64,000 nt of DNA from Chrysomallon squamiferum. Lineage: Eukaryota; Animalia; Mollusca. This document shows positions 17,763 to 60,392 of the stretch, in pieces. The notes beneath the pieces were generated by a model. That model ran no database searches. It saw only the letters and a list, made by a program, of their open reading frames with translations, and had not been told where the DNA came from. The position numbers and the translations under genes were made by a program. The first letter of the stretch is position 1. Each line of letters starts with the position of its first letter. The DNA lies in NCBI GenBank assembly GCA_012295275.1, contig CM022671.1:17980001-18044000 (forward strand), given 5' to 3'.

Positions 17763-18389
17763 CGCCCACAGAAGACACCATGGACAAAGAGAATATCCCA
17801 GAAATTGTGGAAATTGAAGCTACCGTTGCTACTGGCTTTGAACAGATTGCAAGAGAAGAAGCTGAAGAAATACTTGGTACACAGCCGAGGACAGGACGTG
17901 GGAAAATAAATATGAAAATACCTCTGAATGAAGCATTCAAAGTTAGTCATTTTTTATTTTAAATTTCAATTTCAAGAGAATTTGGTTCATAAATTTTACA
18001 CTTAAATTAAAAAATAAACAGTAATATAACTGAACTATGAAAATGTTTAAACTCTAGGAATAAAGAAAACAACAAATTAAAACTCGATTTATAAAAAAAA
18101 TATATATATTATTAATATTTTTTTATTTTATTATTTTTTTCTAACATTAAAAAAAATCTCTAGTCAAATAGTTGTTGTATTTAAAATTTAATAATTCCAA
18201 AACCGTAACAGTGAAAACCAAACAATAACAGGATAGGCATCAACTGGAATATTTTTTTTTTAAATTTAATTTTTTTATTTCAGGTGCTTAATCTTGGATG
18301 TATTGACAACATTCGCGTGGTGATGAGTACAATGACAAATGTTGAATTCACTAAGAATGAGGTATGTTATATGAACTAAAAGTCTGATA

Positions 18390-18429
<40 letters not shown>

Positions 18430-29100: not shown

Positions 29101-29295
29101 CTGGGGAATGAAACAAAACAGCATTTTGAACTCGGAACAAATCTCTGCACAAGTTCTATCACTAATTCCAGAAAGTATTGTACCAGATCAGGATACATGT
29201 GGTATAGGACAGCTTGAAGCCATTTTACAGTGGTTCAGAGATCTGATTGAGTTAGACACAGAGAAAGTAGAAAATGAAACAATGACCCTGGTAGG

Positions 29296-29346
<51 letters not shown>

Positions 29347-32300
29347 CAAATAATAATGATGATGATGATGACAGAATAAGTAGAAAAGATATAAATCTGT
29401 TTCAGCTACCAAATTGTATGTTGACATGAAATAAGATTTTTGTTTTTCTCAATCATCAAATTTATCAAATATTTGTAAATAAAGGCCCACCTGTTAAACT
29501 AACTAAATAGCACAAACATAAGTTATGGGTGTTCAGAATTAATATTATGGCTTGGTCCCCTCTGTCTACTTATTTTTTTTTTTTTTTAATATGCATTTAA
29601 TAATTAAAATACAAAATTCAAAAACCACAGTACAGAATATTAGTAAATATTTTCATTTAATATGTTCTATTACTTTTTAAATTCTTAATTTTTAATTATT
29701 TTGGGGTTTTTATATTATGTTAAGCATATATATATTTTATTAAATTTTTCTAAGGTGAAAACAGAAGATATAGAAAATGCACTTGAAGAAAGGAAGGTCA
29801 ATTCAAAAAGACTTATGGTTGCTGTAAGTTTATTATAAATTATAAACAATTAAAAAAAAAAAAGGATTATAAAAAGTGAAGATAATTTTTCATTAAATAT
29901 CTTTCAGAAAAACAATTATTATTGTTTGAAATATATTACACAATAATTAGAAGTTACAATTTTTATTATTTATTCAATGATCTATTTAGTTGTTTATATA
30001 TATATAATTCATAAATTTAAAATATATTTTTTTTAAAAATGTTACTCAGCTTCATATTGTATTTAGTTTTATTACATTTTTTAATAAATTTCTATTTTCA
30101 GGTATTTGTTATTGTTTTAAGAATGATGTCATTTAACACAAGACTGATTTTCTCATTTCATCCTGTACCTTTACGACTTGCACCAGATAATAAGGTATCC
30201 TAAAATCATTCAAATCTGCTAAAAAAAAATAAAACATCAACTGAAACCAGAAATAGAAATTTTCTATAGATTTATTAAAAATAGACTAATGTAATCCAAA
30301 TACTTATATATATATATACAGAGATATATAGATATAGGTAACTAATTTGACTTCACTACCATTATGTTAAAAGTCAACTCCAAATTAATTGGTACAGTAA
30401 TCAAGAATAACTGAAATGTCAGCTTGATTTTCAGTCAAAAGATGGCCAAAAGAAAAATGTTGATGATCAAGAAGAAGAAGAAGAAAGTCCAACAAAAAAG
30501 GAGAAAAAATGTTCAAAAACAAAATTGAAAACAAACACTGATAAAAAGAAATCATCAGGCAAGAAGAACAATTCTAAGAAGTCTGCAAAAGATGAAACAA
30601 GTAAAAAAGGCTGCAAATATTTCAAAAAAGATGCAAAAGTGAAAAAATCTTCTTCATCAGCTATTAAATCTACATCAACAAGTTCTGACAGTACAGATGT
30701 TGATGCAGAAACAAACTCTTCAGAAAAAGAAAGAAAAACGTTTTCTTCAAAACTTTCCAAAAAAGTCAGACAGTCGACATCTGAGAATAGTGACAATGAC
30801 AGCAGCGAAAAGAGACGAACATTGAGACCAAAACCTGCAGGCAGGAAAACAAAGAAGAGTGATGGAAGGGCAGTTAACTCTGATGAATCCGGTTATGAAG
30901 ATGTGTCTGTTTCAGACAATGACAGTGATTTTTGCGATGATGAATTCTTCACCAAGATCAGACAAAAGAAACTGTTGAAGAAAAATGTCAAAGTGAAGAA
31001 ACAAAAATCTGCAGATTCTGCAGCTGAAAGGTACGCTTGAATAGGCTGATTAGGTCTATTTAACTGTTTCTTTAATATCTGTGTAGAATTTGTTTTAATT
31101 AAATTTAGGCTCAGACGTTATAACCCAGTGCTGAGGAATGGTAGTTTGTAGGATCAAATCTGCTCAGAGCATCATTTCCGCATTTTCATCCAAATTAGTG
31201 GTGTATGATTGTCTTTTTGTTACAAGACTGACTTACATGTTTTCATGTAAAAGATATTGTGTTGTTTATAAAAAAAGATTAGTTCATCCAGTGACAGCAA
31301 CAGATTTCTTGTAAGACTTCTTAACAATTTGTAACAATAGTAATATGATAAATAAAACATGACTTTGTTCCTACATGAATTAAATTAAACTGTTCTTGAA
31401 AATTTATTGTAATTTACAAAAATACTTGACAAACCAGTTTAACTTCAAAATTCCACTCCAGATTTATTTCGTACAGTAACAAATAAGCACCAAAATGCAA
31501 GATTTATTTTCAGTCCAAAAAGTTTGCAGTTCCACATTAAGTTTTATTATTATTGTTGTTGTTTGGGTGATTTTTATATGCATGATATTTGATTCCACTT
31601 GAAAATTAATAATTTAATTTCTTTTCTGTATTATTTGAAATGTATTAAGTTTATCCTTTTTTCTCTTTCTTTCTTTTTCTCAGTTCTAGCAGTGATATTG
31701 AAGAAAATGACCAAGAAACAAAACATTCCGTAAAAATCAGCAAGGATAAAGATAAATCAGTGGATGACAAAAACAAATGTAAAATGTTTTCTTTTATTAT
31801 TTTACAGTTTCATCAGAGATAAAAATATGAATTTAATGATAACAAAACCAAAAAGGCTGAAAATTTTACATTTATAATTTTTCTTTGTTACAATTTTTTT
31901 TAACAGTAATAACATCATCAGCCAATTTTTAAATAAAATCTGGTTACATGCATTATTAAGTATGATATATTTTGTATAGAATGTCACATAATTTAGTTTT
32001 TATACAATATTAGGTAAATTTGTCAGATATATATATATCTTTTGATGGCATAAAATATCAAATATTTAGTTCATTCAGAAAATACTTCTTTGGTTTCTGG
32101 TTTATAACATATTCCCCTCCTTACTGTTTTTAATGATATGTTTTTAATTTAATCTTTAAAATGCAACCCTCTCTTTTGAAATCCTAGATCTACTCCTGAT
32201 ATCTAGACATACTAACACATAATGATATACATTTAAGGTCTTGTTAAACAATTTTTTATTGCATTTGTATTTCAGTTTGTGATAGCTGGGTAGAGGTGTA

Positions 32301-33411
32301 TTTGCCAAAAGAAAAACGATGGCTTTGTAAGTTTAATTTGATAAATAAGTAAAAATTAGAAAAAATCTACATTTTTAGTAGACTCAAAGGAAAAATGCTA
32401 ATATTTATTTACTTTCAAATTTTATTACTGTTATTTATTTATTTTATTTTTAATTAACATTACATTGTTTATATTTCTATATATGAAATGATATCACAAC
32501 AATGGTAAAATGTCTTTAAAGTTATTGTTATGCTTAATTTTTAAAAGGATGATATGTAGGAAACAAATAAAAAAGTATTCAGAATTATACAAAATATTTT
32601 TTTTTTTTTTTTTTTAAATGCCTAGTTACTGATGAAGTCATATACTTTAGCAATAAATAAATAAGTAAATAAAACAATAATTTAAATGCATTTCATATTT
32701 ATTACAATGTTTTTGTGCAAAATTCCAAAGGTATGGTATAATCTTAAACATATTGTTTTTATGTTGCATTTGACCTGTTCTTACCTGTATTTCAGGTGTT
32801 GATTGTGAGAGAAATATTGTGGACAAGCCTGATGAAATTGAAAAAAATATATCTCAACCTGTTCATTATGTTTTTGCATTTAGTACAGGTATGTATAGAA
32901 GTAGCAACATTTAAAGTAAACTTTGTATAGTTTGTAGTATTTTTCTATAATATTTTCAAGATGTAGTACTGTTTGCACTTATTTAAATGATGTTTATTTA
33001 AAAATTTGTCTGTTTTAATTTACTTATGAACAGATAACTTTTTAAAATGTTATTCCTTATAAAATTTGCTAGTATTTATATTATATTTATATTAGTTAAT
33101 AAATTTGAGGAATTTTCTGTTAAAAATAGTGATAAACACCAGCAATCAGAAAAGTCTGATCACTGTTAGTGTGTTTAAACACATACTAAATATTAACATT
33201 CCTCAGTATTTCTCTGTTTCTTAATGGCAGACTCCAGTGTAAAGGATGTGACATCACGCTATGCTTCTGATTGGATGACTCACACACGTAAATTACGAGC
33301 GGATTCTGATTGGCTGAACAAGATGCTGAAACCATATAGAAGTTCTAATGTGGAGCTTGATGATCAGGATGATGAAAACATGAGAAGTATGTACACACTA
33401 AAAACACACAC

Positions 33412-33471
<60 letters not shown>

Positions 33472-36400
33472 TCCTAATATATTTCTGAAATTTAGTTTTA
33501 AAAATGTTTTTAAATTATTTTACTAATGTTTTCAAGTTTCCAAATGTTTTACAAATCTTAGAAATAAAAATAAATATGACAAAATTTTGAAGAAATCATT
33601 AAACTAAAAGAAACAGTAAATTTTAATATTGTATATAATCAGGTAAGATCAACATAATTATATAAATATATTTTTTCTGTTTTCATTTATTATTATTATT
33701 ATTTTTATAAACTTATTTATTTTATTATTATTTTATTAACTGTAACATTATAAATCATTTAGCATTCCCTTACACTAAATAATTATTTATTTGTTTTAAT
33801 ATTTTTTGCTTTGTAGATGAATTGATAAGAAAACCTTTGCCAAAAACTGTTGGAGAATACAAAAACCACCCCTTGTATGTTTCTATTCATGGTTATTTTT
33901 TGTTAAGTAATTTAATGAACTTGACAGAATAAATATATATTTTACACAAAACATCATCAACAACAACAACAACAATAATAATAATATTTTTAAGGATTTT
34001 TAGAATTAATAAGATCTTTCTCATATTAATCTGTTTTTGTCTGAAGCCAGTACTTTCAGCTTAATGAAGACACACACACATATATATATATATATATTTT
34101 ATTTTATTTATAAAGGTATGTACTGAAACGTCATCTACTGAAATTTGAAGCTTTGTACCCTAATTCAGCAGTTCCTGTTGGGTACATCAGAGGTGAACCA
34201 GTCTATGCCAGAGAATGTGTTCATACGGTATTTGTATTACTACTGTGAGAGAGAGAGAGATATCTGTATAAATAGATATATATACATAAGTACATACATA
34301 TACAGCATATTCAACATGTTAAAGTGCCAAAATAACCAGACTTAATTTAATATTTAAAAAACAAAAACAAATAAAAAATACATAATTTGGATTGGATGGG
34401 TATTTTAAAAATATTTAAGCTTGATGCCTTCTGACTATATAATAATTTTGATTTTAGCTTCATTCAAGAGAGAACTGGTTGAAAGAGGGCAGATCAGTCA
34501 AGGTAATTATAACAAGTTTAGTTTTTTTTTAAATCTGAAAAATTCCAAAATACTTCTGAAATGGCATGAGGGATGCTGACCACATATGTTGACCAAGTGC
34601 TTATATTTTATATTTTAGATATCAGCATCTGACACTATATAACGATAATTTATTTTTAACATTAACATGATGGTGACAAATGTGTTTTATCTTTAACATT
34701 AACATGTTGTTTGTCTATTAAAAATAATGTGATGTAGTTCAAACATTCATTTTCTAATTTGTTAAAAAAAAACATATTTCTGTGGTTATTAGTCACAGGT
34801 AAATTTTAAAAGATTTTTATTATTAATGTATTTTCAATTTATAGCTGGGTGAAGAGGCATACAAAATGGTTAAATCAAGAAAATATGTGAGTATTATTTT
34901 TGTTATTAATGTTTGATCAAGTATTTTTTTTTTCAAACTCAATTGATAAAATTATTAAATTTAATTTATTTTAGTTATATATTTGTTTTAAGATTAATTA
35001 TGAGAATGACTTGATTAAAATGGTACTGAAATTTTAATTTCAAAGTTGATTTTAAGTAATACTCAAACCTTAAGAAATTTTGTTTAACATTAAAATAATG
35101 TGTTCTGTTAATGTAATTAAAAAAGCTACAATTAAAAAAAGAAGAAAAAAACATTTGTTCAGTGCATACTCTTTATAAATTTACTTTTGACCATAGAACC
35201 TTCTACATAATTAATTTTGTAGGTATTTACTCTAATTGTCAAATGATTTTTACAAATTTGTTTCTGATTATATAACCTACAGCACCTATTAATTTTGTAC
35301 TGTATATGTTATTTAGTACAGTAATTCAATGAATTTACAATTTGTTTATTTAAGAAAGTGCCAAAATTGGATCCTGATGCTCTTGATCTGGAATTGTATG
35401 GTTTCTGGCAGACTGAAATTTATGTTCCTCCTCCAGTTGTAGATGTAAGTTGTGTTTTTTTTTTTGTTTTTTTATATTTGTCAGTTATTTTCCTATCTAA
35501 TAACTATACAACAGTTGTTTTTTTCAAAAGTGATGTCATCTGTGGGGGAAAATGTAGAGAAAAAATCTTGTTATCCCATAGAAAATAAACAGGATTAATA
35601 GTAATACATTTTTTAAAAGTTTCTTAACAAGAGACTGTTAAATAACTGTGACCAATACATTTTATGGAAAAGTAATGTAGGTAATCAGACATTCAATGCT
35701 AAACCATTTCTCTTTCAGGGTAAAATTCCTCGTAATGCCTATGGTAACTTGGAACTGTTTCAGGAGTGGATGCTACCTACTGGAACTGTACAAGTAAAAT
35801 GTAAGTTATGTTTTTATATTGGATTATTTAGCACTTATCATTAATTATCTAGATAATTTTTTTTAATATAATATTTGTTGTATATGTATTGTAAAACCGT
35901 AATGAATATGTTTGTTTGTTTGTTTCCTTAGTTACAGTAGTAAATTTTATTGCTACAGCTTAGTTTTTATGATTGATTTTTTGTTTAATTAATTACATAT
36001 AAATTATTTTTTGTTTGTTATTTTATTTTTTTTTTTTCCAGTGCCTGGTTTGAACAGAATTGCAAGGAAACTTGGAGTTGACTGTGTACCAGCCATGGTG
36101 GGATGGGACACTCACAGTGGATATTCACACCCACTGTATGATTACTTTATTTTATGTTTCTTTGCTATTATGCACTGTAATATCTGTAAATCTTCATCTT
36201 GCTTTATTTTATTTTATTTTTAATGTGTTTTATATATATTCTTTTTATTTTTAAATTTTTTTACTATTTTTTTTTTAATTAAATGTTTAAATATTTTTAT
36301 TTATTGACTGATTTTGATTGTGACTAGTTTTCAAAGGCTTTATTATGTGTTGTCCTCTTCATAATAATATGCTTCTAAAATATCCTAGCTTCTAAAATAA

Positions 36401-37781
36401 AGAAAATGAAGGGTAGTGTATAACATAGATAAAAGTGCCATTTCACAAAATGTCCAGAAAACAATTTTTACCCCAAACATAAGAACATGGGCTATCCTGA
36501 AATTCAAGCATCAACGGAATAATATTTTAATTTTTTGATAGCACGTAAAGTTGGAACAGTAAATTTTCTGTCTGATTACGTATGAGGCCTTTAATTGCCA
36601 GAAGCTAAGTAACAGTATATTAAAATCTGTTGTTATTAAATCATAAATGTAACATTTCTTTCTTTCTTTATTATTGTTGTTGTTGTTATCATTATTATTT
36701 ATTTATTTATTATTATTTAATTATTTTTTTTAGAATGGATGGATGGATTGTGTGTTCAGAACATGAGGAAGCTCTTCAGGCTGCCTGGATTGAAGATCAG
36801 GAAATACAACTCTTGAAAGAAGTGGAGGTAACTCTAATATTAATTTCCATCCAAAATGTATATAAATTATTTTTAAATTTATATATCTATATATATAATT
36901 TTTTTATTTTATGTGAAAGAAGTACATGCCATATCTTTTTTTTATTATTATTATAGGGGTTTTTTAAGGTTTTTTTACACTACCTGAAATAACATTTTAA
37001 AGGTTACACATTTACTATTAAAATTTATGTTCAATGTCTTTCCTATTAATATATCTTGTATTTATTTATTTATTGGGTTCTTTCAGGGTTTTTTTAATAT
37101 AGAGTAACTACCATATTAAATACATACGTAATATTCACCAACAGCAGTGACCATTACTGTTCAGATTAATAATTTGTGATATTTCTGTCTTCAGAAAAAA
37201 CATAAACGAGCTCTTGCAAACTGGCGACTTCTCACTCGAAGTCTTATCATTGGTGACAGACTGAAAAAACAGTTTGATCTTGAGGTGAATTTCCCGTTTT
37301 TATTTGCAAATCTGACAGATCAAAGCACATTTTTTCTTTAAATTTCTTACTGAAAGAATTGTTAGGTGATTTGCAATTTCCTGTATCTTAATAATAATGT
37401 TTTCTTCTTATTTATGAACAAATAAAGCACATATATTTAAAAAAAATAAATAAATTAAAAAATTTTAAAAACTGATTATTCTGGTATAAAAATTAGTGTT
37501 AGTTCTTAAGGTTTAAGAATGTTTTATTGTTGATTAATTTTATTTATTTTGTTATTGTTATTTGTTAACAAAATCATATTTTAACATTTCTGTCCATTCT
37601 GTTTCTTTTTTATTTTGCACAGCAAAACCCAGAATGTGAAGAAAACACAGAGGAGGTCAAGAATGGTAAAAAGGCTGATGATGTTCAAAGTTCATGGCCT
37701 AGAAATCTAGAGAAAAAGACTCAAAAAACCCCAAAAGCATCAAAGAAAAAACCCAGACTGTGTAGTGTTGAAACAATATAA
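26132..37781 (+). CDS. XPC: XPC/Rad4 nucleotide excision repair damage sensor, 21 coding exons
   Basis: Exons 26132-27644, 28028-28109, 28596-28680, 29078-29290, 29755-29823, 30102-30194, 30435-31030, 31684-31778, 32276-32326, 32796-32888, 33231-33386, 33817-33874, 34116-34227, 34458-34502, 34845-34886, 35355-35444, 35719-35800, 36042-36135, 36734-36827, 37195-37284, 37623-37781. Motifs [62 protein letters not shown], and centrin-binding NWRLLTRSL. Confidence 0.96.
29297..29370. repeat. (AAT)n/(GAT)n microsatellite in an XPC intron
   Basis: Directly visible. Confidence 0.95.
33414..33468. repeat. (CA)n microsatellite
   Basis: Directly visible. Confidence 0.95.
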
Positions 37782-39495: not shown

Positions 39496-40128
39496 TTACA
39501 TTTCTTCTTTTGTTTTTTCCTTTGAACCGAGAAGAGATTTCTCTTTTTCAATCCATTTATCCATATCCTGAAAAAAAAAAATTAAATATATACAAATAAA
39601 TGCATAAAATATAATATATAAATATACAACTGAGTGCTATAAACAAAAATGAAAGACAAAGTTGCCCATAAAATCTACCAATGATGAAAAGTTAATGTTT
39701 ATTTTGTTAACAATGTATTTAGAAAATCTTATTTAAGTGTTACATAAATAATCAACATTTTAACACAGATCATATCAACAATCTTATCCACCACAAAAAA
39801 AAAAAAAAAAAATTATTTTCTGTTGTTCTTGAAATTTATTAGTCTTTTTTTTTTCTTTTCCCCATTAAAATTTTATATTAAAAGTATATTTAAATTTTAT
39901 ATTTTGAAGTTCAAACATATACTTCACAAATAACTGATGTTTATTATTTACACTCTACCATAAAAGATTTCAGATAAGGGGTAGATGAAATGTACAATTA
40001 ACACTGTAATGGACATTCACCTCTAAGGGTTTGTAGTAAATATGAACCACTTGTGCTCCTGCACCCATAGTCAACAATGCAGCTGCCAAAAATCTGAAAT
40101 AACCTGGAGGCAAGCGTCCCACCACCAT
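39496..40128 (-). CDS. UQCC6: BRAWNIN / C12orf73 / sloth2 complex III assembly microprotein, 59 aa, 2 exons
   Basis: Exons 40128-40021 (GAG|gtgaat) and 39567-39496 (tttcag|GAT) give MVVGRLPPGYFRFLAAALLTMGAGAQVVHIYYKPLEDMDKWIEKEKSLLGSKEKTKEEM. This matches the recalled family signature (human AMCAGAEVVHRYYRP; fly AGSQAVHLYYKPLED). Strong start context aaaaATGG. Confidence 0.92.
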
Positions 40129-40274
40129 TTTTGATACAGAACACTAATTATATCCAAACACTATGTGAAATCCACCGAAATGTCTATGTTAGTATGTATT
40201 GTTTATTATAACACGTTATCACTAAAAGGTCTCAGCAGAAAAAGAATGTACATCAAAATGTTGATTTTATGATA

Positions 40275-41439
40275 TCACAGTTTATTTTTAGATGTTGCTG
40301 AAGTTTCCAGACTCTGCATAGCAATTTTATGTGCTTGTTTTTCCTTGTATACTGAATCTAAAGAAGAGAAAACAAAACTGTAATGAAAGTGAAATACTTT
40401 TAGATCATACTAATGCACAACTAGCCAAAATGTATTTAATGAAAAAAAAAACCATTTGATTATTTGATATAAATTATTTACATTAATATTTAATGACCGT
40501 TTCAAAATGTCACACACCTGCCAAAAACAGTAAAATAAGGCCTACCACGTTAATCCAAATAAACAAAAAATGATTTAGCATGCATGTGTGTGTTCTTGAT
40601 GTGATTTTATAAAACTGTTTTGTTAAAATAATTAGTTTTAGATTCTAAAATGTTCACGTACATCAAATGCATTCAAGAACGCAGCTTTAATCAACATAAA
40701 CGAAGCCGTGCATCAACCTGTCTAATCACTGACAGAATGAATAATTAATTTCTCTTATTAATAGCAAAGGATGTATTATGTTAACTTTCCCATTGATAAC
40801 ATCAAAGAGCACTAGCTGTGCTGAAAATAACCGACGCGGAACAATAAAGACTGATCATCAAACCTCTAACAAGTGTTGAAATGGGAACCATTCGTCAAAG
40901 TTAAATAAAAGAATATTTGAAAAATAAAAATAAAAAAATAAAAAATAAACGAAAACTGATCAAAATATTAATATAGATGCTCGACGTATAAAAGATAAAT
41001 AGGCTGATATTCTCTAATGCCCCAGCATGATCTTAACTTCTTTAAACGGTTATTCAGTTAAAAATGTTAATAAATTCGTTTGGATCACGTTTATTTCCAT
41101 TTGGCATTTTCCAATTTGAATGTCTAGCGGATTTCAATTTTGAGAGTTATGTCCCTTCTACTTGAATCGTCAGTCCCACATTTTATAAAATAAATATAAT
41201 GCAAACCAATGCATCAGCCATAACTGCGAAAATTATGTTATTTCATTCTTACATATGGAATATTTCACAAACTTACAAAAGTTAATCTGTCCTACTCTCC
41301 AATTTACCATTGAAAACTCAACTGCAGCTCCCAAAACAAAAAAAATCGGAAGAAATCTATACATTCCAAACGTTTTTTTCCCAGGCCATGCCTGCATAAT
41401 GCGTTGAATTGTTCTACTAAAAAAGAATCTACTAATCAT
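40275..41439 (-). CDS. UQCC5: SMIM4 / sloth1 complex III assembly microprotein, 81 aa, 2 exons
   Basis: Exons 41439-41277 (T|gtaagt) and 40357-40275 (tttag|AT). WPGKKTFGMYRFLPIFFVLGAAVEFSMVNWRVGQINFYSVYKEKQ matches the recalled human PGKQRFGIYRFLPFFFVLGGTMEWIMIKVRVGQETFYDVYRRK. Confidence 0.94.
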
Positions 41440-41692
41440 GATTTTATTTTAGGACATGTGCTCACTTTCTTGTCTCATTTCACCTTTCAGTTGCTGACAT
41501 TTTGTAACTTGCCCATGCGCAGAGTAAACTTTCAGAATACTAGAAATGTGCCGAGAACGTTGATTGGATTAATCACATTTATCAACCAATCACATCTTAG
41601 TTTACACGATTATTCCTGTTTAGAAAAATCTGCAGAGAAAATGGGAGCACTTACCGAATAACTGGAAAGATTAATTTCATATAATCTGTTAG
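41440..41692. promoter_or_regulatory. bidirectional promoter SMIM4/TDG and probable non-coding TDG exon 1
   Basis: NRF1-like TGCCCATGCGCA 41510-41521; oppositely oriented CCAAT boxes (ATTGG 41563, CCAAT 41586); donor AG|GTATGT at 41692/3; CpG-retaining surroundings 40500-42170. Confidence 0.75.
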
Positions 41693-42184
41693 GTATGTTT
41701 GGCTTTAATTTTCCTCTCGATAAAAGGCTTTACTAATCAAGATTTCTGTTCAGCTACTTGGTAAAACAACTGCATTAATATACATCAAAATCAAATACTG
41801 GTCATCGTGTATTGGAAGTTGAAATGGCCCTCTCGGCCACTCTGCCATTGGGCCATTGTCATTGTTTCGTTTAGTTGAGATTTCAAAAGTCCCTGATGAA
41901 TCATCTGATTTGTTGTCTCAGATGTCCAGAATTAAGTTTGCGATCGATTTCTAGTGAACCTTTTTTAGTCGGAACATTACCACCGTTTCTTAATAAAAGG
42001 TAATTATTAAATTTGTATTTATCGGGGATTCAGTTACTGAGCTTATTCGTTTCCAGATTTTCGTTATTCATTTTACGATGAAAAAATAATTTTAAAAAAT
42101 GACTGGTTTAATCGTATGCATTTGATATTATTTTAAATCATTTATATTTTTATTCCACTGTGTACGTTTTGTTTATGTTGCCCA

Positions 42185-42187
<3 letters not shown>

Positions 42188-42232
<45 letters not shown>
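42188..42232. repeat. (GT)n microsatellite
   Basis: Directly visible. Confidence 0.95.
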
Positions 42233-42234
<2 letters not shown>

Positions 42235-43380
42235 TTTTTTGTTTATCCCAAAGACTTTAACTAATGGTAATGACTAATATAATATATCCGTAATGTATTA
42301 TTATTCATTATAAATTCATTATATATCCTTTAATTAAATATGAAGTTTAAAATAATACATAAATGCAAAATTGTATATAACACAGTTGTAGAAAAACAAG
42401 ATACTGACATGACATATATGTGTGCATGTTGTTCAGCTAGTTGCACACACACACACACACACACAATAATATATCTATATGTGTGCCAGTATATATGTGT
42501 GTTTTTATATGAATTATTAATATCTAACTCAACTCTAAAACTAACCGTGAAATTAACCCTGAACCTAGAGGCAGAAATTATTATATTTCTTGAATAGATC
42601 AGTTAATGTTGATAATGTATTGTTTGATAGTGGATGAACTAGCTCTGATTATTTGTCCTCAGTGTAAATCCAGTTAGTGTTCCCATCTTGTCAAAGATAT
42701 TTGACATTACTGTTTAGCAGAACGTGAAAAATGGTGTCCTTTTGCTAATCTTTAAGTTTAAAATCGGTCAAAAATATAAGGACTGGTTTTATTGGTTGTA
42801 TCCATTACAAATCACATGGTTAGCAGCTTACAACTGGTTGTTTTTATGTGAAATCATAAACTTTGTTTTTCCAATAACCTCAGTATAAAATTTTATGTAG
42901 AAACTAGAAGAGAATATCAGTGGAAACAAAACAACTGTTAATACAAAAACATGTTGAGACATTAAATATTTGTTTAATCATTTGATCTGAACATGTAATG
43001 ATATCTTATGTATGTTCACATGTTGATCATTAAATGAAAAATTCCACTGAGCAAAATCATCAAAATTATTCTTACTTTGATAATAACATTCAATTAGATT
43101 TTATTAATATATATTTTTTTTTAAATTAATGTTATTAATATTTCAGCAACAATTAATTATTTGATTAAACATTAACATCACTTAAACATGAAATACTTCA
43201 ATACCTGTTATTTGTTGCTGGACCATTCATTTATAAAACTCTAATTCTAATAAAGTATGCCAGTATTCAATAAAATAGTTTAAAAAGATAAATCATAAAA
43301 AGAAGAATTGTTCAAATATTTATTTTTATTAGTTTTACAATTGATAATTTCTTCCTGCTGGCCTGCTTTATAGGGACAGA

Positions 43381-43606
43381 TGTAAATAAAATAATTAATA
43401 CTGAATCTTATTAATGCACTTGTTAAACCAATGACTTGATGCTACAGCTGGTTAAACTGCTGTTGTTATAAGACCAACACCTTCTTTGTTCCTGTAAACA
43501 AAATAATTAATACTGAATCTTATTAATGCACTTGTAAAAAACCAATTACTTGACCCTAAAGCTGATTAAACAGTAGTTGTTATAAGACCATCACCTTCTT
43601 TGTTGC
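43381..43606 (+). repeat. tandem duplication of about 112 bp (2 copies)
   Basis: 43381-43492 and 43493-43606 share aaaataattaatactgaatcttattaatgcacttgt and gttgttataagacca.caccttctttgtt. Confidence 0.9.
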
Positions 43607-43911
43607 TATAAATAATAGTAATTTTCAAATATTCTGGCATAAAAGAAACCAAAAAATGCACCTGTTAGACAGATATGGGTTGTTTTTTTTGTACATATTA
43701 AAAAGGTTAAAGTGAAGTATTTTATATAACTAATGTAAGACAAATGTTTAAGAATCAGAATTTTTTTTTAAATACAAGTCAAAAACAAGTAATCTGCTTG
43801 ACTGTCAGACTCAAAGTGATAAAGTTTATGTTTATTTTACTGTTTTGATTTTCATGTTATTGAAATATATTTGTTTTATTTTTCAGTGCAGCTTTTTGAT
43901 TGCACTGTAAG

Positions 43912-45631
43912 ATGGATATGAGCAACCAAAACATGTATGTTCAAGCTCTGCTCTTCTTTTCTTTTGTTGTTGTTGTGCACAAAAAGTACAAAATATAGTG
44001 TAAACTAATAAAAAAAAAAAAATGTATGACTATATTGTTTAATTTTATTAATAAATAAAATTTAAATAAATAGAAAAGAATATGGCATGGTCTATCGGTT
44101 TGGGGGTAATGAACCTTTAAAGAGTTCATCTACTTCATAAGAATGAAAATAATAATATAAATGTGTTTGTAACAATGTTCTATTCTTTTAATAAAAATAG
44201 TAATAATTCATGCCTAACTGATTTGAATAGTTGTTTGAGGAATGTAATTACTTCTGCAGGTACAGGTGTAAAAACTAATTAACAATGCAATACCTAATAA
44301 CACACTAATACACTATTTACACAGTGTAATACATATAACAATGTTATACACAATATTGTAATAATTTAAACTAACACAATGTAACATATAATGTAATAAA
44401 TTAACATAATGCAATACATAATGTTGTAAGAAAGTAACACATTAATGATTATGTAAATTCTAAGAAAAATAATTTGTTTTCCTTCGATATAACTTTTATC
44501 TCCTCTTCTTTCTGAGTACTGATTTATAAGTATTTATTATTGCTTTATTTTCTTAACATATATATATATAATTTGAATTTTTATTTATGTTTTACTTCTT
44601 TTTTCCTTTCTTAAACATTTCTTATTATTGTTCTTTTTTTTTACTTTATTTTTTTGTTATTATTTTTTCTTTACCTTCTTATTTTAATTTTTTTTTTTTT
44701 TACATACTTGTTTTATTATTATTATTATTATTAATATTATTATTATTATTATTTATTAATATGAAAAGATTTTGGAGAAAATATTGACGAATAAAACATA
44801 TTTTTAGGTTTTTCCATCAAATGCAGTCCTACCAGGCTTATGCACAGCAACAAATGATGAACTCACAAATGGGAATTATAGATCAGAAACCAATAGGACT
44901 TGTACAGCAGTTTGGGAGGGATGAACAGAATGTTAATACAACAGAGAAGAAACCTGCAAAGCCATCTAAAAGAAAGAAGAAAGTGAAGTAAGATAAAAGA
45001 AGTTATGAGAACTGTGATTGGTTCGTTTACTTCATGTATGTGTGGTGTGTAATCAAAGTAGTTTTCACTGGATCTTGTAATATAGCACTATAATCCCACC
45101 AAAAAAATAAAAAAATAAAATAAAATAAAATAAAATAAAATTTAAAATGGCCTGAAACTGTATTTAATTCACTGTATATGTTTTCATCATTCATTTATAT
45201 TTACTGAGCTTTATAATTCAAAGATTGAAAACTATTTTTATTATTATTATTTATTTATATATATTTTTAAATTTTTATTGTTTAATGTAATAGATTAGAT
45301 GCCAACAAGTTTGAATTAATAATTTGAAATGTTAATATTGACTTGATAATTGTGAAATATTTATTTATTTATAATTATCTTAGTAGCTTTCTGTGAATGT
45401 GAACACCATTTAATAAAACACCTTTATTTTACAGTGGAGATTACATACATATATAAATATTGTAAAATAAACTGATGTGTACTGTTCTTTGATGATGATG
45501 ATTATTATTAGTAGTAGTAGTAGTGGTGTGGTGGTAGCAGTAGTAGTATAATTGTTATTTTTATTTTTATTTTCTTTAATTATTTTATTATTATTATTAT
45601 TATTTTTATTATTATTATTATTATTATTATT

Positions 45632-45672
<41 letters not shown>

Positions 45673-46232
45673 AAAATATTTTAAAAATCAGGCCATATCA
45701 ATGATATTTTCCAGTGGAATTAATTAATATAACAATTTTCTTTACTTCATCCTCCGATTTTTCTTCGTTTATTTTTCAAATTATGATCTTATTATTTCAC
45801 AACAGAAAAACAAGCACATAAAATTTATACTTCAAAATAACCCTTTTTTTTTTTTTTTTTTTTTTTGTTTGTTTGTTTCAGAAGATAGTTTTACTAGAAC
45901 ATTTTTAAACATTTTTAAACATTGTGTTTATTTTACAGGGAAACTGTTACTATTAAAGTAGAAGATGGGGTCACAGACAAGAAGAAGATGAAACAGGCTA
46001 AAATTACAGAACATCTGACAGTGAGAAAGAAACGAGACAGATTCAACGGAATGCCAGAGGAAGATGTGATCAAGAGAACTCTCCCAGACCACCTCGCAGA
46101 AAACCTTGATATCGTTATTGTAAGTTCTTAAAGATATAAACAATTTTTTTTTTAAATTAATTAATTAAAAAATTTAAGATTAAAAAGTATTCATGATGAT
46201 GAGCTTTTATAATAATATTCACTTTTTTTAAA

Positions 46233-46295
<63 letters not shown>

Positions 46296-47886
46296 GGAAG
46301 AATCTTTTCCATATTAGACTTTATTTTTAACTTAAGAATTTAAACCATAAATACTCTGTCACACTGTTTTGTTTTAATTACTGAAACCATTAAATTGAAT
46401 TGTTTACACCAAGTAATTCTAATCCTGTAACTTTTTGGTTATGAAGAAGTTGCTTAAATAATTTTTTCTTTACTTCTTAATGATTCTTTTGATTCATATG
46501 ATCAGTATAACTAATAGGAAAATACATTAAAATGCAAGCATGCATTAAGACTAACAGTTATCCAGCTGTATTGTGATGGTATTTTGTATATGTTGGAATA
46601 TCAAAAATACTTGATAGACTGAGTATGCAGTAATTTTTATCTTCTCAGTTTTGTTTTGTTTTGTTTTGTTTTGTTTTGTTTTGTTTTGTTTTTATTTTAT
46701 TTTATTTTATTTTATTTTATTTTATTTTATTTTATTTTATTTATTTATTTATTTATTCAAAAAATATTCCCATGATAAATATTTAAATATTCTATTAAAG
46801 GATAAATTAATTCTTGTTTTCATGTAAAAATAATATGTAAAAGTGAAAATGATATAAAAATAACTGGTTTTATAACAAATAGAAGACAGTGGCTTCTTAC
46901 ATGTAATAAAATTTCTGAAATTATTACTCAGTAATCTTGTTTGTCTGGGGGCTTATATTCATTAGAGAAGTTCAGCTCTGAATGGTTCAATTTCAATGAA
47001 TATTTATTAGCAGCTCCTTAATACATTTTAATAATACAAACTTACTAGACTCAGATATTCTTGCAGTATAATACTGAGCAATGAACCTTCTGTATGTACT
47101 TACTAACAAAGCAGTTATGGGGCAATAAATGAAACAGAATTCATTACATGTAAGTTATTTGTCAGGAAGTATTAACAAAATAGATTACTGAATTTTCTAA
47201 ATTAATTTGGATAATCTGTTTCAGATTGGTATTAATCCTGGATTATTTGCTGCCTATGTAGGACATCACTATGCAGGACCAGGAAACCATTTTTGTAAGT
47301 TGTTTTTAATATATTTTATGTGATCTGACATTATTTGAATTATTAAATTGTCTTGGTTAATGTAAGAATTCGGACCTCATAGCAAAAAAAAAAGTGGTCT
47401 CATAGTTTCTAGATTTGATTTTCTTTTTTATCTAACTGGAACTGCTAAAGAAAAAACTATAATAAGAAACTAAAAAAAAGGCCTTTTTTTATTGTTAAAT
47501 AATGTGGCATAGACATAATTTGTTTTACATGCATTTTGTTCATACATTATTTTCTTTTATCTTTTTCTAAATGTCTAAAAATGTGTATAATTCCTTTTTA
47601 CAAAAAGGTTACTTATTCTTTTCTATGTATGTAATTCAAACATATAAGTAAAATATATAATTTTAGTTATTAGAATATTACATTTGAACTTTTTTTTTTT
47701 TTTTTCTGATATTTTTTAAAAACAATGTGAATAATATTTTAGTAAATACATACATACTTACATTGTTATAATTTTGTATTTATTATTATTTTATTTTATT
47801 TTCAGTATTTAATACAGTAAATGTATTTAGTGATTTTTGTTATTGATATTACTGATTTTTTTTATTTTCATAGAGAAATGTTTGTG

Positions 47887-47932
<46 letters not shown>

Positions 47933-50900
47933 GGTTTTTATTTTGTAATTTTTGTTATTAAAACAACTGACTGTTATTTTTCCACAGGGAAATGTTTGTA
48001 TTTATCTGGTTTGATACCTGAACCTATGAATGCCTATGATGATTCGAAACTGCTGGATTTTGGTATAGGATTTACAAACATTGTTGGCAGAACCACTCGT
48101 GGAAGTGTAGATCTGAAAAAGTAAGCTATTTCTTATTTCTTGTTATTTATTTACTTAACCCTTTGGCACAAAACATACTTCTCAATTCCAGGTATTTTTT
48201 GGGGAAAAATTACCTAAGTGAAATATCAGTTTTAACTTAGGCTAGTGCATTTAGTCGAGATAAGTGGTCTTCTAGCATGTGGAAATATCCTGGCAATGAC
48301 ACCAAAAGGGTTAAGCTTAAAGGTGTTAAATGATAGTGTTTTTGAACAGACACGTAATACTGGGATATACAGGAATATATCAATTTATGTTGTTAAGCAG
48401 ATAAGTACAGGGATTCTGTTCAGTTTGTTGATATATATATATATATATGTATATAGAATCTATTCAGTAAGTTTATACATGCTGAACTTAATGAGTTACT
48501 TATGTTGATCAGTACTTAACTCTAGTTACATGACAAGTTTTTTTTAAACTGTTTACTTAAACATTGCACATCTCATCATATAAAACATATATGAAAATCT
48601 CACATCAACCACCCTCCAGTTAATTTTACTCACAAATGTCTTGTTTATCCCACCATTTATGCAGTGAGCCATAAGATAATGTCTTTATAATCATTATTTT
48701 TACCTAAGCTGTCTTGAAGCCAGGTTTGTTTGCTCCATGTTTTGTTTGTCAGAGAATAGTAAAATTAGGGGTATCTATAGTGTTTTTTAATGGTTCAATT
48801 AGTTCTGCAAATATGTATTTAATCAGATAAAATAACAGTTTTATCTAATACTACTGTTAAAGCTGGTAGAGTATCATTATTTCTTGTTTTATATTATTTC
48901 ATATTAGTTCCAACTTTTTTCTTGTTTAATTTTTATCATTTATGTGAAACTTTTCTTACATGGCCTAGTTATTTTTAAATTTTCTAGTATAAGATTAAAA
49001 ATATATATATAATTTAAAAACTATAGTACTTTAAGATGTTTTTGTTCTGAATTTGTAAATAGATACATTGTTTTTCTCTACATATTTTATAATTTCATTT
49101 TTTAAAATTTGTTTTTCTTAATCCAGAGAAGAAATAAAAGAAGGAGCTCAGATTTTAAAAGAAAAAATCATCAAATACAAACCAAAGATTGCTGTTTTCA
49201 ATGGAAAAGGTTTGCATTTAAAAATGAATCAAGATTTTAATATTTTAAATTATATGATGTTTTATATTTAAACTTTACTGGATTTGATTAGGGGTTTATT
49301 TATTTTTGTTTTCTGTGTAGCAGTGTAAGGCCAGGTGTTTTATATTTTATTATAAATGTTGGTTTATAAAATAGGTGTCACAAATTATTTAATTAAATTT
49401 GTTTCTTTCAAATCTTTACTCCAGGAATTTATGAAGTCTTCTTGGGTCACAAGAATTTCTATTTTGGAAAACAGCCTGAAGTATTAGATGGATCTAACAC
49501 AGTGAGTTTTTTCAAGATATATATATTTTTCATTCCATTGACATTTTCTTTTCATTTATCTTTAAATCCTGTAACTTTGGCCTTTCCTACATTTTAAATA
49601 CATCCCTCAATTATTTTGAAAACATAATGTTAAGTAGATTCCAAAATACATTTCTGTTACAATTATCTGAAGAAGAAATAATTTAATTTTTTAATCATCA
49701 ATTTTTATTTTAAACAAATCAGTTGTGATGAAATTGTTTTTATTGTTACTGTTAAGGTTTTCTTTAATTAAACAAATAACATTAGATGGAAAATTGTTTT
49801 TATTGTTATTTTTTTATTGTTATTTTTAAGGTTTTCTGTGTTTAAACAAATCACATCAAATCAACTGGATTTTCAAGGTTGTCTGTGTTTAAACAAATGG
49901 ATATCAGGATGAAATTGTTTTTAATGTTATTTTAAGGTTTTCTGTGTTTAAACAAATCAAATCAGGTTGTCGATGTTTAAACAAATTAAATCAGGTTATC
50001 TTGATGAAATTGTTTTGTTATTTTCAAGGTTGTGTAAAAACAAATTGTTTTGTTTTGTTATTTTTAAGGTTGTCTGTTTTAAACAAATCACATCAGGATT
50101 TTATTGTTATTGTTAAGGTTTTTTGTGTTTAAACAAATCAAAATTGTTATTTTAAAGGTTTTAAACAAATCACATCAGGATATCATGATGAAATTGTTTT
50201 TGTGGTTATTGTTAAGGTTTTCTGTGTTTAAACAAATCACATCAGTATAATTGTTTTGTTATTTTCAAGGTTGTCTATGTTTAAACACATCACATCAGTA
50301 TAATTGTTTTGTTATTTTCAAGGTTGTCTATGTTTAAACACATCACATCAGTATAATTGTTTTGTTATTTTCAAGGTTGTCTATGTTATGCCGTCCTCAA
50401 GTGCCCGTTGCGCTCAGCTTCCGAGAGCAGTGGACAAGCTACCGTTCTTCACAGCCCTGAAGAAACTTCGAGACCATCTCCGTGGCGACATCCACCTGGA
50501 AGACGACTCGGAAGTGACGTTTCCTGACCTAGAGCTGAAGGTGTTCAAGCAGGAGAAAATAGAACCGGTTGAAAACGAAGAAGTTGTTCCAGAAGCTCAG
50601 AAACTGACGGCAGCTTCTGCTTCTGTGCTTTCACATGACATTCAGGTCAGTCCGAACTCAATGTGGCCCCCAGTGAAGCAAGAAAAAGGCTACAACCCGG
50701 CTGATTACGGTGGAATGTCCAACCAGGCACCAATGGCTGCGTCTGCAGCACATGCTCATGCCAAGAATGTGTATAAAAATTCCCATGAGATGAGCTATCC
50801 GCTGACAAACAGTTCAGGAGCTCAGGCGTTGAGTGTGGATCTCACAGTCCCACACACGACTAACTCAGGTTTCTTTCCCAATACTGATCTTCACTCTCTA

Positions 50901-51803
50901 CAACCTATGCAGCAGTTCTACTCGCAGGGAGGGTCGTTTCTTCAGCAGTTACAGGCTCCGTTGATGCCAGATCAGAGTCAGGCTCAGTGTTTTGCTAACA
51001 GACCAAATTGGCAGCAGTTTGGTGGGCCCCAGTTTTATCAGAACCTGGCAATGAACCAGCTGTTACCTCAGGGTCCACAGAACCCAGGATTTAACAACTT
51101 TCCAGGTCAGCAGCAGCAGCAACAACAACAACAGCAGCAGCAGCCTCAGATTCAGATGCACGCTGTTAAAAATGAACCACAAAGTCAGGGTTATGAAAAA
51201 CCTAAAGATAAGAAAACAAACCGTAAGAAAAAAAAGGTGGTTGAAAAGCAACAACAGAGCCAACCACAACAACAACAACAGCAGCAGCAGCAGCAGCAAC
51301 AACCACCACCATTACATCATCTACAACAACAGCCACAAAGCCAACATCCATTCTGTCCTCCAGGCCAGTCTCAGCAAAGTCTGCAGTCACTGACGAATGT
51401 GAAAACTGAATGTGTTGAACTCGGATACGACTGTGCTTTCAGTAACAAGACTAATCTGTTAGACGAGACCCAGGAACATCCATTTCCCCCACAACCGCAG
51501 TGTTTGCAACAGTCCCGCCCACCACCTCCACCACTGCACCATATGCCCCACTCCCTTCAACAAAACAACCATGTTCTGTCGGGAATGCAACAGCAACAGC
51601 AACAACATCCCAACAGCAGCATGGTCAACTCTGAACACAATTCAAACATCTCGGTCAATAATTCAAGTCATATAGGAGGTCAGCATCAGCATCACCAACA
51701 ACAACAACAACAACAACATTCTCCCACACACTTACCATTTGTGGTGAAAAGTGAACCACAAGACTGTGGCTACGAATGTGCAGTGGTAAAGAACTTGAGT
51801 TGA
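43912..51803 (+). CDS. TDG: G/T mismatch-specific thymine DNA glycosylase with a long Q-rich C-terminal tail, 8 coding exons
   Basis: Exons 43912-43934, 44808-44987, 45939-46119, 47225-47294, 47988-48120, 49127-49209, 49425-49501, 50376-51803, in phase. Motifs [21 protein letters not shown] (catalytic Asn), [37 protein letters not shown]. The start exon is less certain. Confidence 0.96.
45586..46750. repeat. intronic simple repeats: (ATT)n/(GTT)n 45586-45672, (ATT)n 46234-46293, (GTTTT)n/(ATTTT)n 46648-46750
   Basis: Directly visible. Confidence 0.9.
48159..48310. mobile_element. piggyBac-type MITE, 152 bp
   Basis: TTAA|CCCTTTGG ... CCAAAAGGG|TTAA: TTAA on both sides and short terminal inverted repeats beginning CCC. 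Confidence 0.65.
49712..50387 (+). repeat. 53-bp-unit tandem array made of the TDG last-exon splice acceptor
   Basis: Unit ttgttttgttattttcaaggttgtctatgtttaaacacatcacatcagtataa, near-perfect at 50251 and 50304, with a partial copy at 50357 that runs into the real exon. About 9 more degenerate copies lie upstream. Confidence 0.92.
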
Positions 51804-59657: not shown

Positions 59658-60392
59658 TTAACTGGGTCCGTTCTGGGTAAGAAATACTGAAGGTAAAGTC
59701 AAGTCACTTCGTGGCACCACTTTGCTCTCGCTGTCTGAATTCCACGCCACAGTTTCTGACGAAGGTTTTGGCTGATTCATGGTCACTGCTATTGGAGGCA
59801 GGATCAGTTGCGCTGTTGAACGTTTGCTTCTTGCCTGGCGCCCCGCTGGGTCTGACTTGGAGCTGTGACGGTCGCGTTTTCGTCGGACGGACTGCAACAG
59901 CGCTGACGTCGATTTCCCCCTGTCAAACAATTCCGGTGGCTTGCGATATTCAAGTAATTTTTTAGCAGCTTTGCGTCTGCGACAGGACGGTGTGTTTTCT
60001 TTGATCCTCTTTTCTATCATGGCTTGAATTGCCTCATTGTTGCCGGTAAGGCCGGGCACGTACAGCAAGTCTTTTTCGGAGTCTAAGTCACAAGACTGTC
60101 TGGCGAGATCGTCGAGGACTTGTTTGTACGCTATATGTTCTTTTAAGTTCTGTCTGTGCTGATTGCCTTCGGCTAAAAGTTTCCTTTCGAAAATTCTCCT
60201 AGCTGCCTCAATTTGCTTCTGCTCGAATTCGAACCTGGCATCCTGCGATTTGTTCAGCACTTCAGTTTCGCTAGATCGGGCAGCGCACTGCCTTTGGAGA
60301 GCCTCCACTCTCGATTCCACGAAAAATGTGCCGTGAAACTCGTCAAAGATCACGCGTCGTGATCGCATCGTGGTGCTGACGTCTTTAGCCAT
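59658..60392 (-). CDS. intronless uncharacterised 244-aa protein (coiled-coil N-half, basic disordered C-half)
   Basis: Long ORF with much higher GC and CpG than its flanks, start context agaATGG, normal amino-acid complexity; family not recognised. Confidence 0.85.
   Translation of the reverse strand: MAKDVSTTMRSRRVIFDEFHGTFFVESRVEALQRQCAARSSETEVLNKSQDARFEFEQKQIEAARRIFERKLLAEGNQHRQNLKEHIAYKQVLDDLARQSCDLDSEKDLLYVPGLTGNNEAIQAMIEKRIKENTPSCRRRKAAKKLLEYRKPPELFDRGKSTSALLQSVRRKRDRHSSKSDPAGRQARSKRSTAQLILPPIAVTMNQPKPSSETVAWNSDSESKVVPRSDLTLPSVFLTQNGPS

What the first reader, a model, noticed from the sequence alone, without database searches (positions are those of the whole stretch)
41277..43934. 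Head-to-head link of the microprotein locus with TDG looks ancient
Seen: SMIM4-BRAWNIN diverges from TDG across about 200 bp with NRF1-like and paired CCAAT sites. Recalled: human C12orf73 lies head-to-head with TDG at 12q23, while SMIM4 is on 3p21. Inference: the ancestral unit was TDG opposite SMIM4-BRAWNIN, and vertebrate genome duplication split the bicistron by reciprocal loss. This would be a respiratory-chain/base-repair promoter pairing kept since the bilaterian ancestor.
Basis: partly seen in the sequence, partly recalled or inferred. Interest (0 to 1): 0.75.

Follow-up and report, generated by a model that had tools for sequence, protein, structure and literature searches.

The report
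Ancient TDG–mitochondrial microprotein gene pairing
In this invertebrate (likely a snail), a two-in-one gene for two small mitochondrial proteins starts within about 140 bases of a DNA-repair gene that faces the other way; the same neighbours turn up in some other invertebrates and, for one of the two small genes, in vertebrates, so the pairing is likely very old and was likely split by vertebrate genome doubling, but many animals lack it.

Summary
RNA contigs show a spliced SMIM4-BRAWNIN bicistronic transcript (minus strand) and a non-coding first exon of TDG (plus strand), at most 140 bp apart. The gap holds the window's only near-perfect NRF1-like site and an outward-facing CCAAT pair.

TDG also faces SMIM4-BRAWNIN head-to-head in two unidentified invertebrates. 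It lies within about two gene models of SMIM4 in two crickets and next to C12orf73 in human and chicken. Independent origins are unlikely, so the link probably dates to the protostome-deuterostome ancestor. Vertebrate SMIM4 and C12orf73 sit in mirrored neighbourhoods (GLT8D1/2, NT5DC2/3, STAB1/2) on copies of one ancestral chromosome that separated at the first genome duplication, which supports reciprocal loss.

The pairing is not universal. It is absent in cockroach, a weevil and 5 of 6 loci with at least 4.5 kb upstream, where RPB10 or an AMP-binding gene can face the pair instead (MOB4 in a shorter locus). A respiratory-chain/base-repair function is unsupported. Amphioxus, echinoderm and lamprey synteny were not tested.

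New here: one RNA run shows a splice that skips the SMIM4 start exon and yields a BRAWNIN-only mRNA. The bicistron itself is published.

The parts
39496..39567 (-). BRAWNIN (UQCC6/C12orf73 orthologue) last coding exon, stop at 39496-39498
   Evidence: Splice model; contig pieces in 3 of 4 RNA runs
40021..40357 (-). Shared exon: SMIM4 C-terminus (stop 40275-40277), 146-nt spacer with one short uORF, BRAWNIN ATG at 40128
   Evidence: DUF4516 E 1e-10
41277..41495 (-). First exon: leader with a 9-codon uORF (ATG 41478) and SMIM4 (UQCC5) start, ATG 41439 (second in-frame ATG 41397); SMIM4 81 aa in total
   Evidence: UPF0640 E 1e-24; spliced joint 41277-40357 in 2 of 4 runs
40358..41465 (-). Alternative GT-AG intron that removes the SMIM4 start and membrane segment, giving a BRAWNIN-only mRNA
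   Evidence: Joint 41466-40357 in 1 of 4 runs (X4, one contig, 30 letters on the short side); donor GTGAG
41496..41635 (.). Candidate bidirectional promoter, at most 140 bp between RNA-covered ends
   Evidence: CpG enrichment; promoter activity inferred, not assayed
41510..41521 (.). NRF1-like site (1 mismatch to a recalled consensus), unique in the window
41561..41592 (.). Outward-facing pair of CCAATCA boxes (NF-Y-like)
41636..41692 (+). TDG non-coding exon 1 with a 6-codon uORF (41641-41661)
   Evidence: Loose ends equal to exon 2 letters in 2 of 4 runs
43887..43934 (+). TDG exon 2 with ATG at 43912
44808..51803 (+). Remaining eight TDG coding exons (44808-44987, 45939-46119, 47225-47294, 47988-48120, 49127-49209, 49425-49501, 50376-51803 listed as modelled; with exon 2 the model gives 724 aa)
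   Evidence: nearest named protein Gigantopelta aegis
26132..37781 (+). XPC (Rad4 family), convergent with BRAWNIN, stop codons 1.7 kb apart; start approximate
   Evidence: Rad4 E 2e-9 and BHD_3 E 1e-6; tblastn

Best explanation
TDG and the SMIM4-BRAWNIN bicistron are transcribed away from each other across a gap of at most 140 bp that is likely one shared housekeeping promoter, likely inherited from the protostome-deuterostome ancestor, and the bicistron was likely split in jawed vertebrates by reciprocal loss from two genome-duplication copies. Shown: the layout, both spliced transcripts, the motifs, the same head-to-head layout in two other invertebrates, near-adjacency in two crickets, and TDG-C12orf73 adjacency in human and chicken. 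Inferred: NF-Y- and NRF1-like factors drive both directions. The link persists mainly because a break inside so short a shared promoter would damage two genes, not because the pathways must be co-regulated; when it is broken, another housekeeping gene takes TDG's place. After the first duplication (1R), one copy kept TDG, the old promoter and BRAWNIN and lost the SMIM4 exon; the other kept SMIM4 and lost TDG and BRAWNIN. Lamprey still has an intact bicistron, so the losses would have been completed after the split from jawless fish. In this animal BRAWNIN has 9 upstream ATGs on the full mRNA and 3 on the SMIM4-skipping mRNA, so BRAWNIN is probably made partly from the skipped form rather than by simple leaky scanning.
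For: Window layout and RNA. Head-to-head TDG upstream of SMIM4-BRAWNIN in L023 and L024/L029, two species that share only 72-84% identity in coding exons. In L024 the ATTGG/CCAAT pair (-157/-122) and a candidate TDG-strand donor (-267) mirror the window (-151/-128, -258). Gryllus bimaculatus SMIM4 GLH02676 and TDG GLH02678/GLH02679, both on a 7,195,898-bp scaffold. G. longicercus tags 006570 and 006572, both on a 1,852,040-bp scaffold. A Batillaria gene model fuses the end of XPC to TDG, the same order and strand as here. Human 'neighboring TDG and C12orf73' at 12q23.3 (PMC11714271). Chicken list GLT8D2, TDG, C12orf73, HSP90B1 (PMC12937304). Sheep list GLT8D1, GNL3, PBRM1, SMIM4, NT5DC2, STAB1 (PMC8327097). 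NT5DC3 near TDG in human and Nt5dc3 beside Stab2 in mouse. Human chr3 around 52-53 Mb is quadruplicate D and chicken chr1 / human chr12q is quadruplicate A of paralogon 5, with A/B versus C/D splitting at 1R (PMC8040251). Bicistron in fly, choanoflagellate, sea squirt and lamprey, split in jawed vertebrates (PMC9681215). Tdg and Brawnin are 2 of only 4 down-regulated genes in one mouse data set (PMC12157468).
Against: TDG was found in only 3 of 80 loci. That is 2 of 15 sequence clusters with at least 2 kb upstream and 1 of 6 with at least 4.5 kb. RPB10 (L071), MOB4/phocein (L064/L066) and a weak AMP-binding hit (L032/L033) face SMIM4 instead. Blattella and Ceutorhynchus carry the genes on different scaffolds or chromosomes, so only 2 of 4 checkable named species, both Gryllus, are linked. 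In both crickets one number lies between the genes and orientation is unknown; if that model is BRAWNIN the layout there is not head-to-head. The taxon of L023/L024 is unresolved: AU tests reject neither a gastropod nor an insect placement (p 0.15-0.24). No non-vertebrate deuterostome was tested. The GLT8D, NT5DC and STAB pairs are not in the held part of the ohnolog table, so their ohnolog status rests on names and positions. The skip isoform rests on one contig in one run. The mouse co-regulation could be a linked-haplotype effect (recalled: Ptbp1 is on the same chromosome).
Confidence: 0.68

Rival explanations
1. The link is ancient and kept because it co-regulates complex III assembly with TDG base repair or demethylation.
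For: Persistence across very distant lineages; a shared NRF1-like site; Tdg and Brawnin fall together in one mouse data set; XPC, another repair gene, flanks the other side.
Against: TDG is replaced by unrelated housekeeping genes or lost as a neighbour in several lineages. In jawed vertebrates SMIM4, the stoichiometric partner of BRAWNIN, is on another chromosome. No NRF1 half-site was found upstream of SMIM4 in L023 or L024. No functional data.
Confidence: 0.14
2. The adjacency arose more than once: housekeeping genes on one ancestral chromosome repeatedly pair up head-to-head, and the mollusc and vertebrate links to TDG are convergent.
For: Patchy distribution (2 of 15 informative clusters); several different partners; no deuterostome invertebrate tested; cricket orientation unknown.
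Against: The same partner in a gastropod, an unplaced invertebrate clade, crickets and vertebrates is improbable among the hundreds of genes of even one linkage group. Orientation, a non-coding first TDG exon (predicted in L023/L024) and CCAAT spacing are shared between the window and L024.
Confidence: 0.1
3. The link is ancient, but the jawed-vertebrate split came from a single-gene translocation or local rearrangement of SMIM4, not from genome duplication.
For: Lamprey shares the first duplication yet has an intact bicistron; single-gene translocations do occur (PMC13689697 abstract).
Against: SMIM4 sits among GLT8D1, NT5DC2 and STAB1, which mirror GLT8D2, NT5DC3 and STAB2 around C12orf73, on a sister copy of the same ancestral chromosome. 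The same abstract puts translocation below 1% of families per 100 My.
Confidence: 0.08

Closest known systems
Drosophila sloth1-sloth2 bicistron (SMIM4/UQCC5 and C12orf73/BRAWNIN/UQCC6), Bosch et al. 2022, PMC9681215 (read: section 5, passages, supplement 1 with sequences cut)
   Same: Same two ORFs in the same order on one spliced transcript; the paper already reports the bicistron in choanoflagellate, sea squirt and lamprey and the split onto human chr3 and chr12.
   Different: The paper has 0 occurrences of 'TDG' and offers no mechanism for the split. The spacer is 146 nt here against 5 nt in fly. BRAWNIN has 9 upstream ATGs here, and a SMIM4-skipping splice form exists.
Conserved ancestral microsyntenic pairs (CAMPs), Irimia et al. 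2012, PMC3514665 (read: passages; supplements not available)
   Same: Two unrelated genes, 5'-5' orientation, under 1 kb apart, linked in several major animal groups.
   Different: One partner is a bicistron of small ORFs that was later divided between duplicated chromosomes. Whether this pair is in their Table S2 could not be checked.
Vertebrate paralogon 5, Lamb 2021, PMC8040251 (read: passages, supplement part 38 of 127, two searches in the supplement)
   Same: The SMIM4 and C12orf73-TDG regions fall in quadruplicates D and A, which separated at 1R.
   Different: SMIM4 and C12orf73 are not ohnologs of each other; they are complementary remnants of one duplicated two-ORF locus.
Human TDG-C12orf73 neighbours at 12q23.3, PMC11714271 (read: abstract passage)
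   Same: TDG is next to the BRAWNIN gene and they share differentially methylated positions.
   Different: SMIM4 is missing between them; the head-to-head orientation is recalled, not read.

Membership tests
SMIM4-BRAWNIN (sloth1-sloth2) bicistron | Upstream UPF0640 ORF followed by a DUF4516 ORF on the same strand | tested here: met
SMIM4-BRAWNIN (sloth1-sloth2) bicistron | Both ORFs on one spliced transcript | tested here: met
   One contig (X2) with both introns removed; an assembled contig, not a single long read
SMIM4-BRAWNIN (sloth1-sloth2) bicistron | Downstream ORF translated by leaky scanning | tested here: inconclusive
   9 upstream ATGs and a 146-nt spacer argue against simple leaky scanning; no ribosome data
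Bidirectional (head-to-head) promoter | Divergent 5' ends within 1 kb | tested here: met
   At most 140 bp between RNA-covered ends
Bidirectional (head-to-head) promoter | CpG-rich, with CCAAT/NRF1-type motifs (feature recalled) | tested here: met
Bidirectional (head-to-head) promoter | Shared elements drive both directions | not testable with these tools
   Needs reporters or CAGE
Conserved ancestral microsyntenic pair (Irimia 2012) | Unrelated genes | tested here: met
   UDG superfamily versus UPF0640/DUF4516
Conserved ancestral microsyntenic pair (Irimia 2012) | [quoted passage not shown] | tested here: inconclusive
   Gastropod, crickets and vertebrates (BRAWNIN only), plus one unplaced lineage; the fourth group is not identified
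Split by reciprocal loss after whole-genome duplication | Intact two-part locus in unduplicated outgroups | tested here: met
   This window, L023, L024; sea squirt and others in PMC9681215
Split by reciprocal loss after whole-genome duplication | The two halves lie on paralogous chromosome segments | tested here: met
   from papers, across different species; the human SMIM4 position (about 52.5 Mb) is recalled
Split by reciprocal loss after whole-genome duplication | Flanking paralog pairs date to the vertebrate duplications by phylogeny | not tested
   GLT8D, NT5DC and STAB genes are absent from the held part of the ohnolog table

The most novel reading that the evidence does not exclude
The jawed-vertebrate BRAWNIN gene is the ancestral SMIM4-skipping splice form made permanent. 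The bilaterian ancestor had one TDG-facing promoter that made both a two-protein mRNA and a BRAWNIN-only mRNA by alternative splicing to balance the two complex III assembly factors. After genome duplication one copy froze the skipped form beside TDG while the sister copy kept SMIM4. That would be a traceable case of a eukaryotic bicistron resolved into two genes by genome doubling, along a seam already cut by splicing.
Probability: 0.3. Interest if true: 0.65.

Novelty: new member of a known kind. Interest (0 to 1): 0.45.

Why it matters
It offers a testable answer to a point left open by Bosch et al. 2022: how SMIM4 and BRAWNIN, co-translated partners in complex III assembly, became unlinked in jawed vertebrates. 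It suggests that the human TDG/UQCC6 promoter is a remnant older than the vertebrates, so variants or methylation changes there would touch both a DNA-demethylation enzyme and a complex III factor. The pair would be an easily missed ancient microsynteny, because both ORFs are tiny. It is an evolutionary-genomics case study built from known mechanisms, not a new biological system.

Tried and rejected
No assembly was held for this window, so no genome-wide background for motifs or neighbours.

The single-sequence SMIM4 search returned only 2 proteins. The profile search listed 120 of 479 hits, with arthropod names only, so named pairs were limited to insects. SMIM4 accessions were found for Lottia, Patella, Bulinus, Orussus and Nephila, but no TDG accession from these species was in hand.

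Exact look-up of the L023 and L024 BRAWNIN ORFs gave no organism names. TDG trees did not place them.

Supplement searches for human or bovine head-to-head lists found no TDG or C12orf73 (PMC7817982; PMC5499805). The supplements of PMC3514665 were unavailable and may bear on novelty. The TDG evolution paper PMC6976628 lists nt5dc3 and hsp90b1 synteny but has 0 occurrences of c12orf73.

No DNA-run control or finer 5' mapping was obtained for the skip joint. Position 41495 was first read as a start site and rejected: both contigs begin exactly 30 letters before the alternative donor, which fits an assembly branch point.

Ten of the 15 clusters with at least 2 kb upstream gave no gene that could be named, and most are too short to exclude TDG. 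No family hits other than one weak DUF3915 match in 74 ORFs outside 17.7-52 kb. The Atlas gave only sub-0.8 unnamed hits for the ORF at 59664-60392.
Full report
Organism and setting. The window is AT-rich animal DNA with no assembly held. Its TDG is nearest to Gigantopelta aegis (85% over one exon; 92% over 226 columns), so it is most likely a related gastropod. The order is THUMP-domain gene (+), XPC (+), BRAWNIN and SMIM4 (-), TDG (+).

The observation. SMIM4 starts at 41439, is spliced at 41277/40357 and stops at 40275 (81 aa). BRAWNIN starts 146 nt later at 40128, is spliced at 40021/39567 and stops at 39496 (59 aa). TDG has a non-coding exon ending at 41692 and a 724-aa reading frame from 43912 to 51803. 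Contigs of 4 RNA runs from one study were laid. X2 carries both ORFs on one contig with both introns removed. X2 and X4 splice 41692 to TDG exon 2. RNA cover reaches 41495 on the SMIM4 side and starts at 41636 on the spliced TDG contig, so at most 140 bp separate them. The gap holds the only site in 64 kb within one mismatch of a recalled NRF1 consensus and two outward-facing CCAATCA boxes. Shuffles give 2 of 5000 and 0 of 5000, and 0.028 for plain CCAAT pairs, with the caveat that the motifs were picked after the fact. The region is CpG-rich relative to its flanks.

An extra splice form. X4 shows a GT-AG joint from 41466 to 40357 that removes the SMIM4 start and membrane segment (1 of 4 runs, one contig). 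The X2 and X4 contigs both begin 30 letters before this donor, as expected if the assembly graph branches there, which hints that X2 holds both forms. Upstream ATGs before BRAWNIN fall from 9 to 3 in the skipped form. The window's 146-nt spacer is longer than in all 25 of 80 loci where it could be measured without introns (1-100 nt). The fly mechanism of leaky scanning (PMC9681215, section 5 read) therefore fits less well here, and splicing or re-initiation is more likely. This step is inferred.

Is the TDG link ancient? A SMIM4 profile scan of metagenome contigs found 88 relatives and kept 80 loci. TDG was detected in 3 of 80, by tblastn and by an HMM: L023 and L024/L029. In each, TDG is on the opposite strand upstream of SMIM4, with BRAWNIN downstream where the contig reaches (L023, L024). 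L024 and L029 are one species (99.8%); L023 is another (72-84% in coding exons only). They form a clade of their own, but their group is unresolved. In L024 the CCAAT pair and a candidate TDG-strand donor sit at nearly the same distances from the SMIM4 ATG as in the window. In Gryllus bimaculatus and G. longicercus, SMIM4 and TDG are two numbers apart on scaffolds of identical length; strand and the intervening model are unknown. A Batillaria gene model fuses XPC to TDG, showing the same XPC-then-TDG order in a second gastropod lineage, though it does not show the small genes between them. Human TDG and C12orf73 are neighbours (PMC11714271, abstract passage), and a chicken table lists GLT8D2, TDG, C12orf73, HSP90B1 (PMC12937304, passage). 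The human head-to-head orientation is from my recall.

Against universality. I clustered 57 of the 80 loci; the 23 left out have at most 455 bp upstream. This gave 37 clusters, 15 with at least 2 kb upstream. TDG is in 2 of 15. In the window the first recognisable catalytic exon is 4.5 kb from the SMIM4 ATG; of 6 clusters with that much sequence, 1 has TDG. RPB10 faces SMIM4 in L071, MOB4/phocein in L064/L066, and a weak AMP-binding hit lies upstream in L032/L033. Blattella and Ceutorhynchus have the genes on different scaffolds. An earlier scan note (e1-9512540, unchecked) reports COX7A2L as the partner in another genome. The link is best read as ancestral but often broken, with the pair usually facing some housekeeping gene.

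The vertebrate split. Bosch et al. report the bicistron in lamprey and sea squirt and separate genes on human chr3 and chr12, with no mention of TDG. SMIM4 lies among GLT8D1, NT5DC2 and STAB1 (sheep table, PMC8327097). C12orf73-TDG lies by GLT8D2 and NT5DC3 (human table, PMC11061283), and mouse Nt5dc3 lies beside Stab2 (PMC9388341 table; mouse Tdg is about 4 Mb from that block). In Lamb 2021, human chr3 genes DUSP7 (52.0 Mb) and CACNA1D (53.3 Mb) are quadruplicate D of paralogon 5, and chicken chr1 genes flanking the 52.7-55.6 Mb interval that holds TDG (BTG1 44.4, FGD4 59.0 Mb) are quadruplicate A. Species columns were inferred from chromosome names. A/B and C/D separated at the first duplication. 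Reciprocal loss between 1R copies, finished after the cyclostome split, is the simplest account. The three mirrored gene pairs are not in the held part of that table and were not dated here.

Function of the pairing. The only co-regulation hint is a mouse data set in which Tdg and Brawnin are 2 of 4 down-regulated genes (PMC12157468, passage). This fits a shared promoter but could be a linked-haplotype effect. Partner swaps and the departure of SMIM4 in jawed vertebrates argue against a required respiratory-chain/base-repair coupling.

Literature status. Searches: SMIM4/C12orf73/bicistronic (14 papers); C12orf73 + TDG (4 papers, passages read for 3, none evolutionary; PMC12455275 seen only as a listing); BRAWNIN/UQCC6/TDG/synteny/head-to-head (9 papers, passages read for PMC6976628); mirrored gene names (1 paper, 7 papers); mouse Brawnin name + Tdg. 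Nothing I read describes the ancient TDG link or the duplication route. The library omits most subscription papers, and the CAMP list of PMC3514665 could not be read.

Verdict. The feature is real. Estimated odds: ancestral link about 0.8, duplication-driven split about 0.8, pathway-level co-regulation about 0.15. It is a new member of a known kind (an ancient head-to-head microsynteny plus post-duplication reciprocal loss). Interest 0.45.

Noticed in passing
window 40358-41465 (-): Alternative intron that skips the SMIM4 start; the leader uATG at 41478 then reads into the SMIM4 C-terminal exon as a 31-codon ORF without the membrane segment.
   Followed up: partly
L024 6953-6963 (+): In the predicted spliced model the SMIM4 stop overlaps the BRAWNIN start (TGATG), suggesting stop-restart coupling in that species.
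   Followed up: partly
window 26132-37781 (+) and 43912-51803 (+): Two DNA-repair genes, XPC and TDG, flank the bicistron on the same strand; the same order is implied in Batillaria by fused model P0047. XPC is recalled to stimulate TDG. No XPC hit downstream in L023 or L024 with the C-terminal query.
   Followed up: partly
window 17756-22836 (+): THUMPD3-like gene upstream of XPC. Human THUMPD3 and XPC are recalled at 3p25, in the same paralogon 5 as SMIM4 and TDG, which fits conserved macrosynteny.
   Followed up: no
window 41641-41661 (+): Six-codon uORF in the TDG non-coding exon.
   Followed up: no
window 50376-51803 (+): Long glutamine-rich C-terminal tail of TDG with repeated VK.E motifs that look like SUMO-acceptor sites (recalled motif); a similar tail is in Gigantopelta.
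   Followed up: no
window 59661-60413 (-): 251-codon ORF in a GC-richer patch with no Pfam hit and only weak unnamed Atlas hits (0.76).
   Followed up: partly
window about 43386-43615 (+): Two imperfect copies of a roughly 110-bp unit in TDG intron 1, seen by eye.
   Followed up: no
L071 9176-9500 and L066 922-1464: RPB10 (followed by an LZTR1-like kelch/BTB gene) and MOB4/phocein stand head-to-head with the bicistron in other animals.
   Followed up: partly
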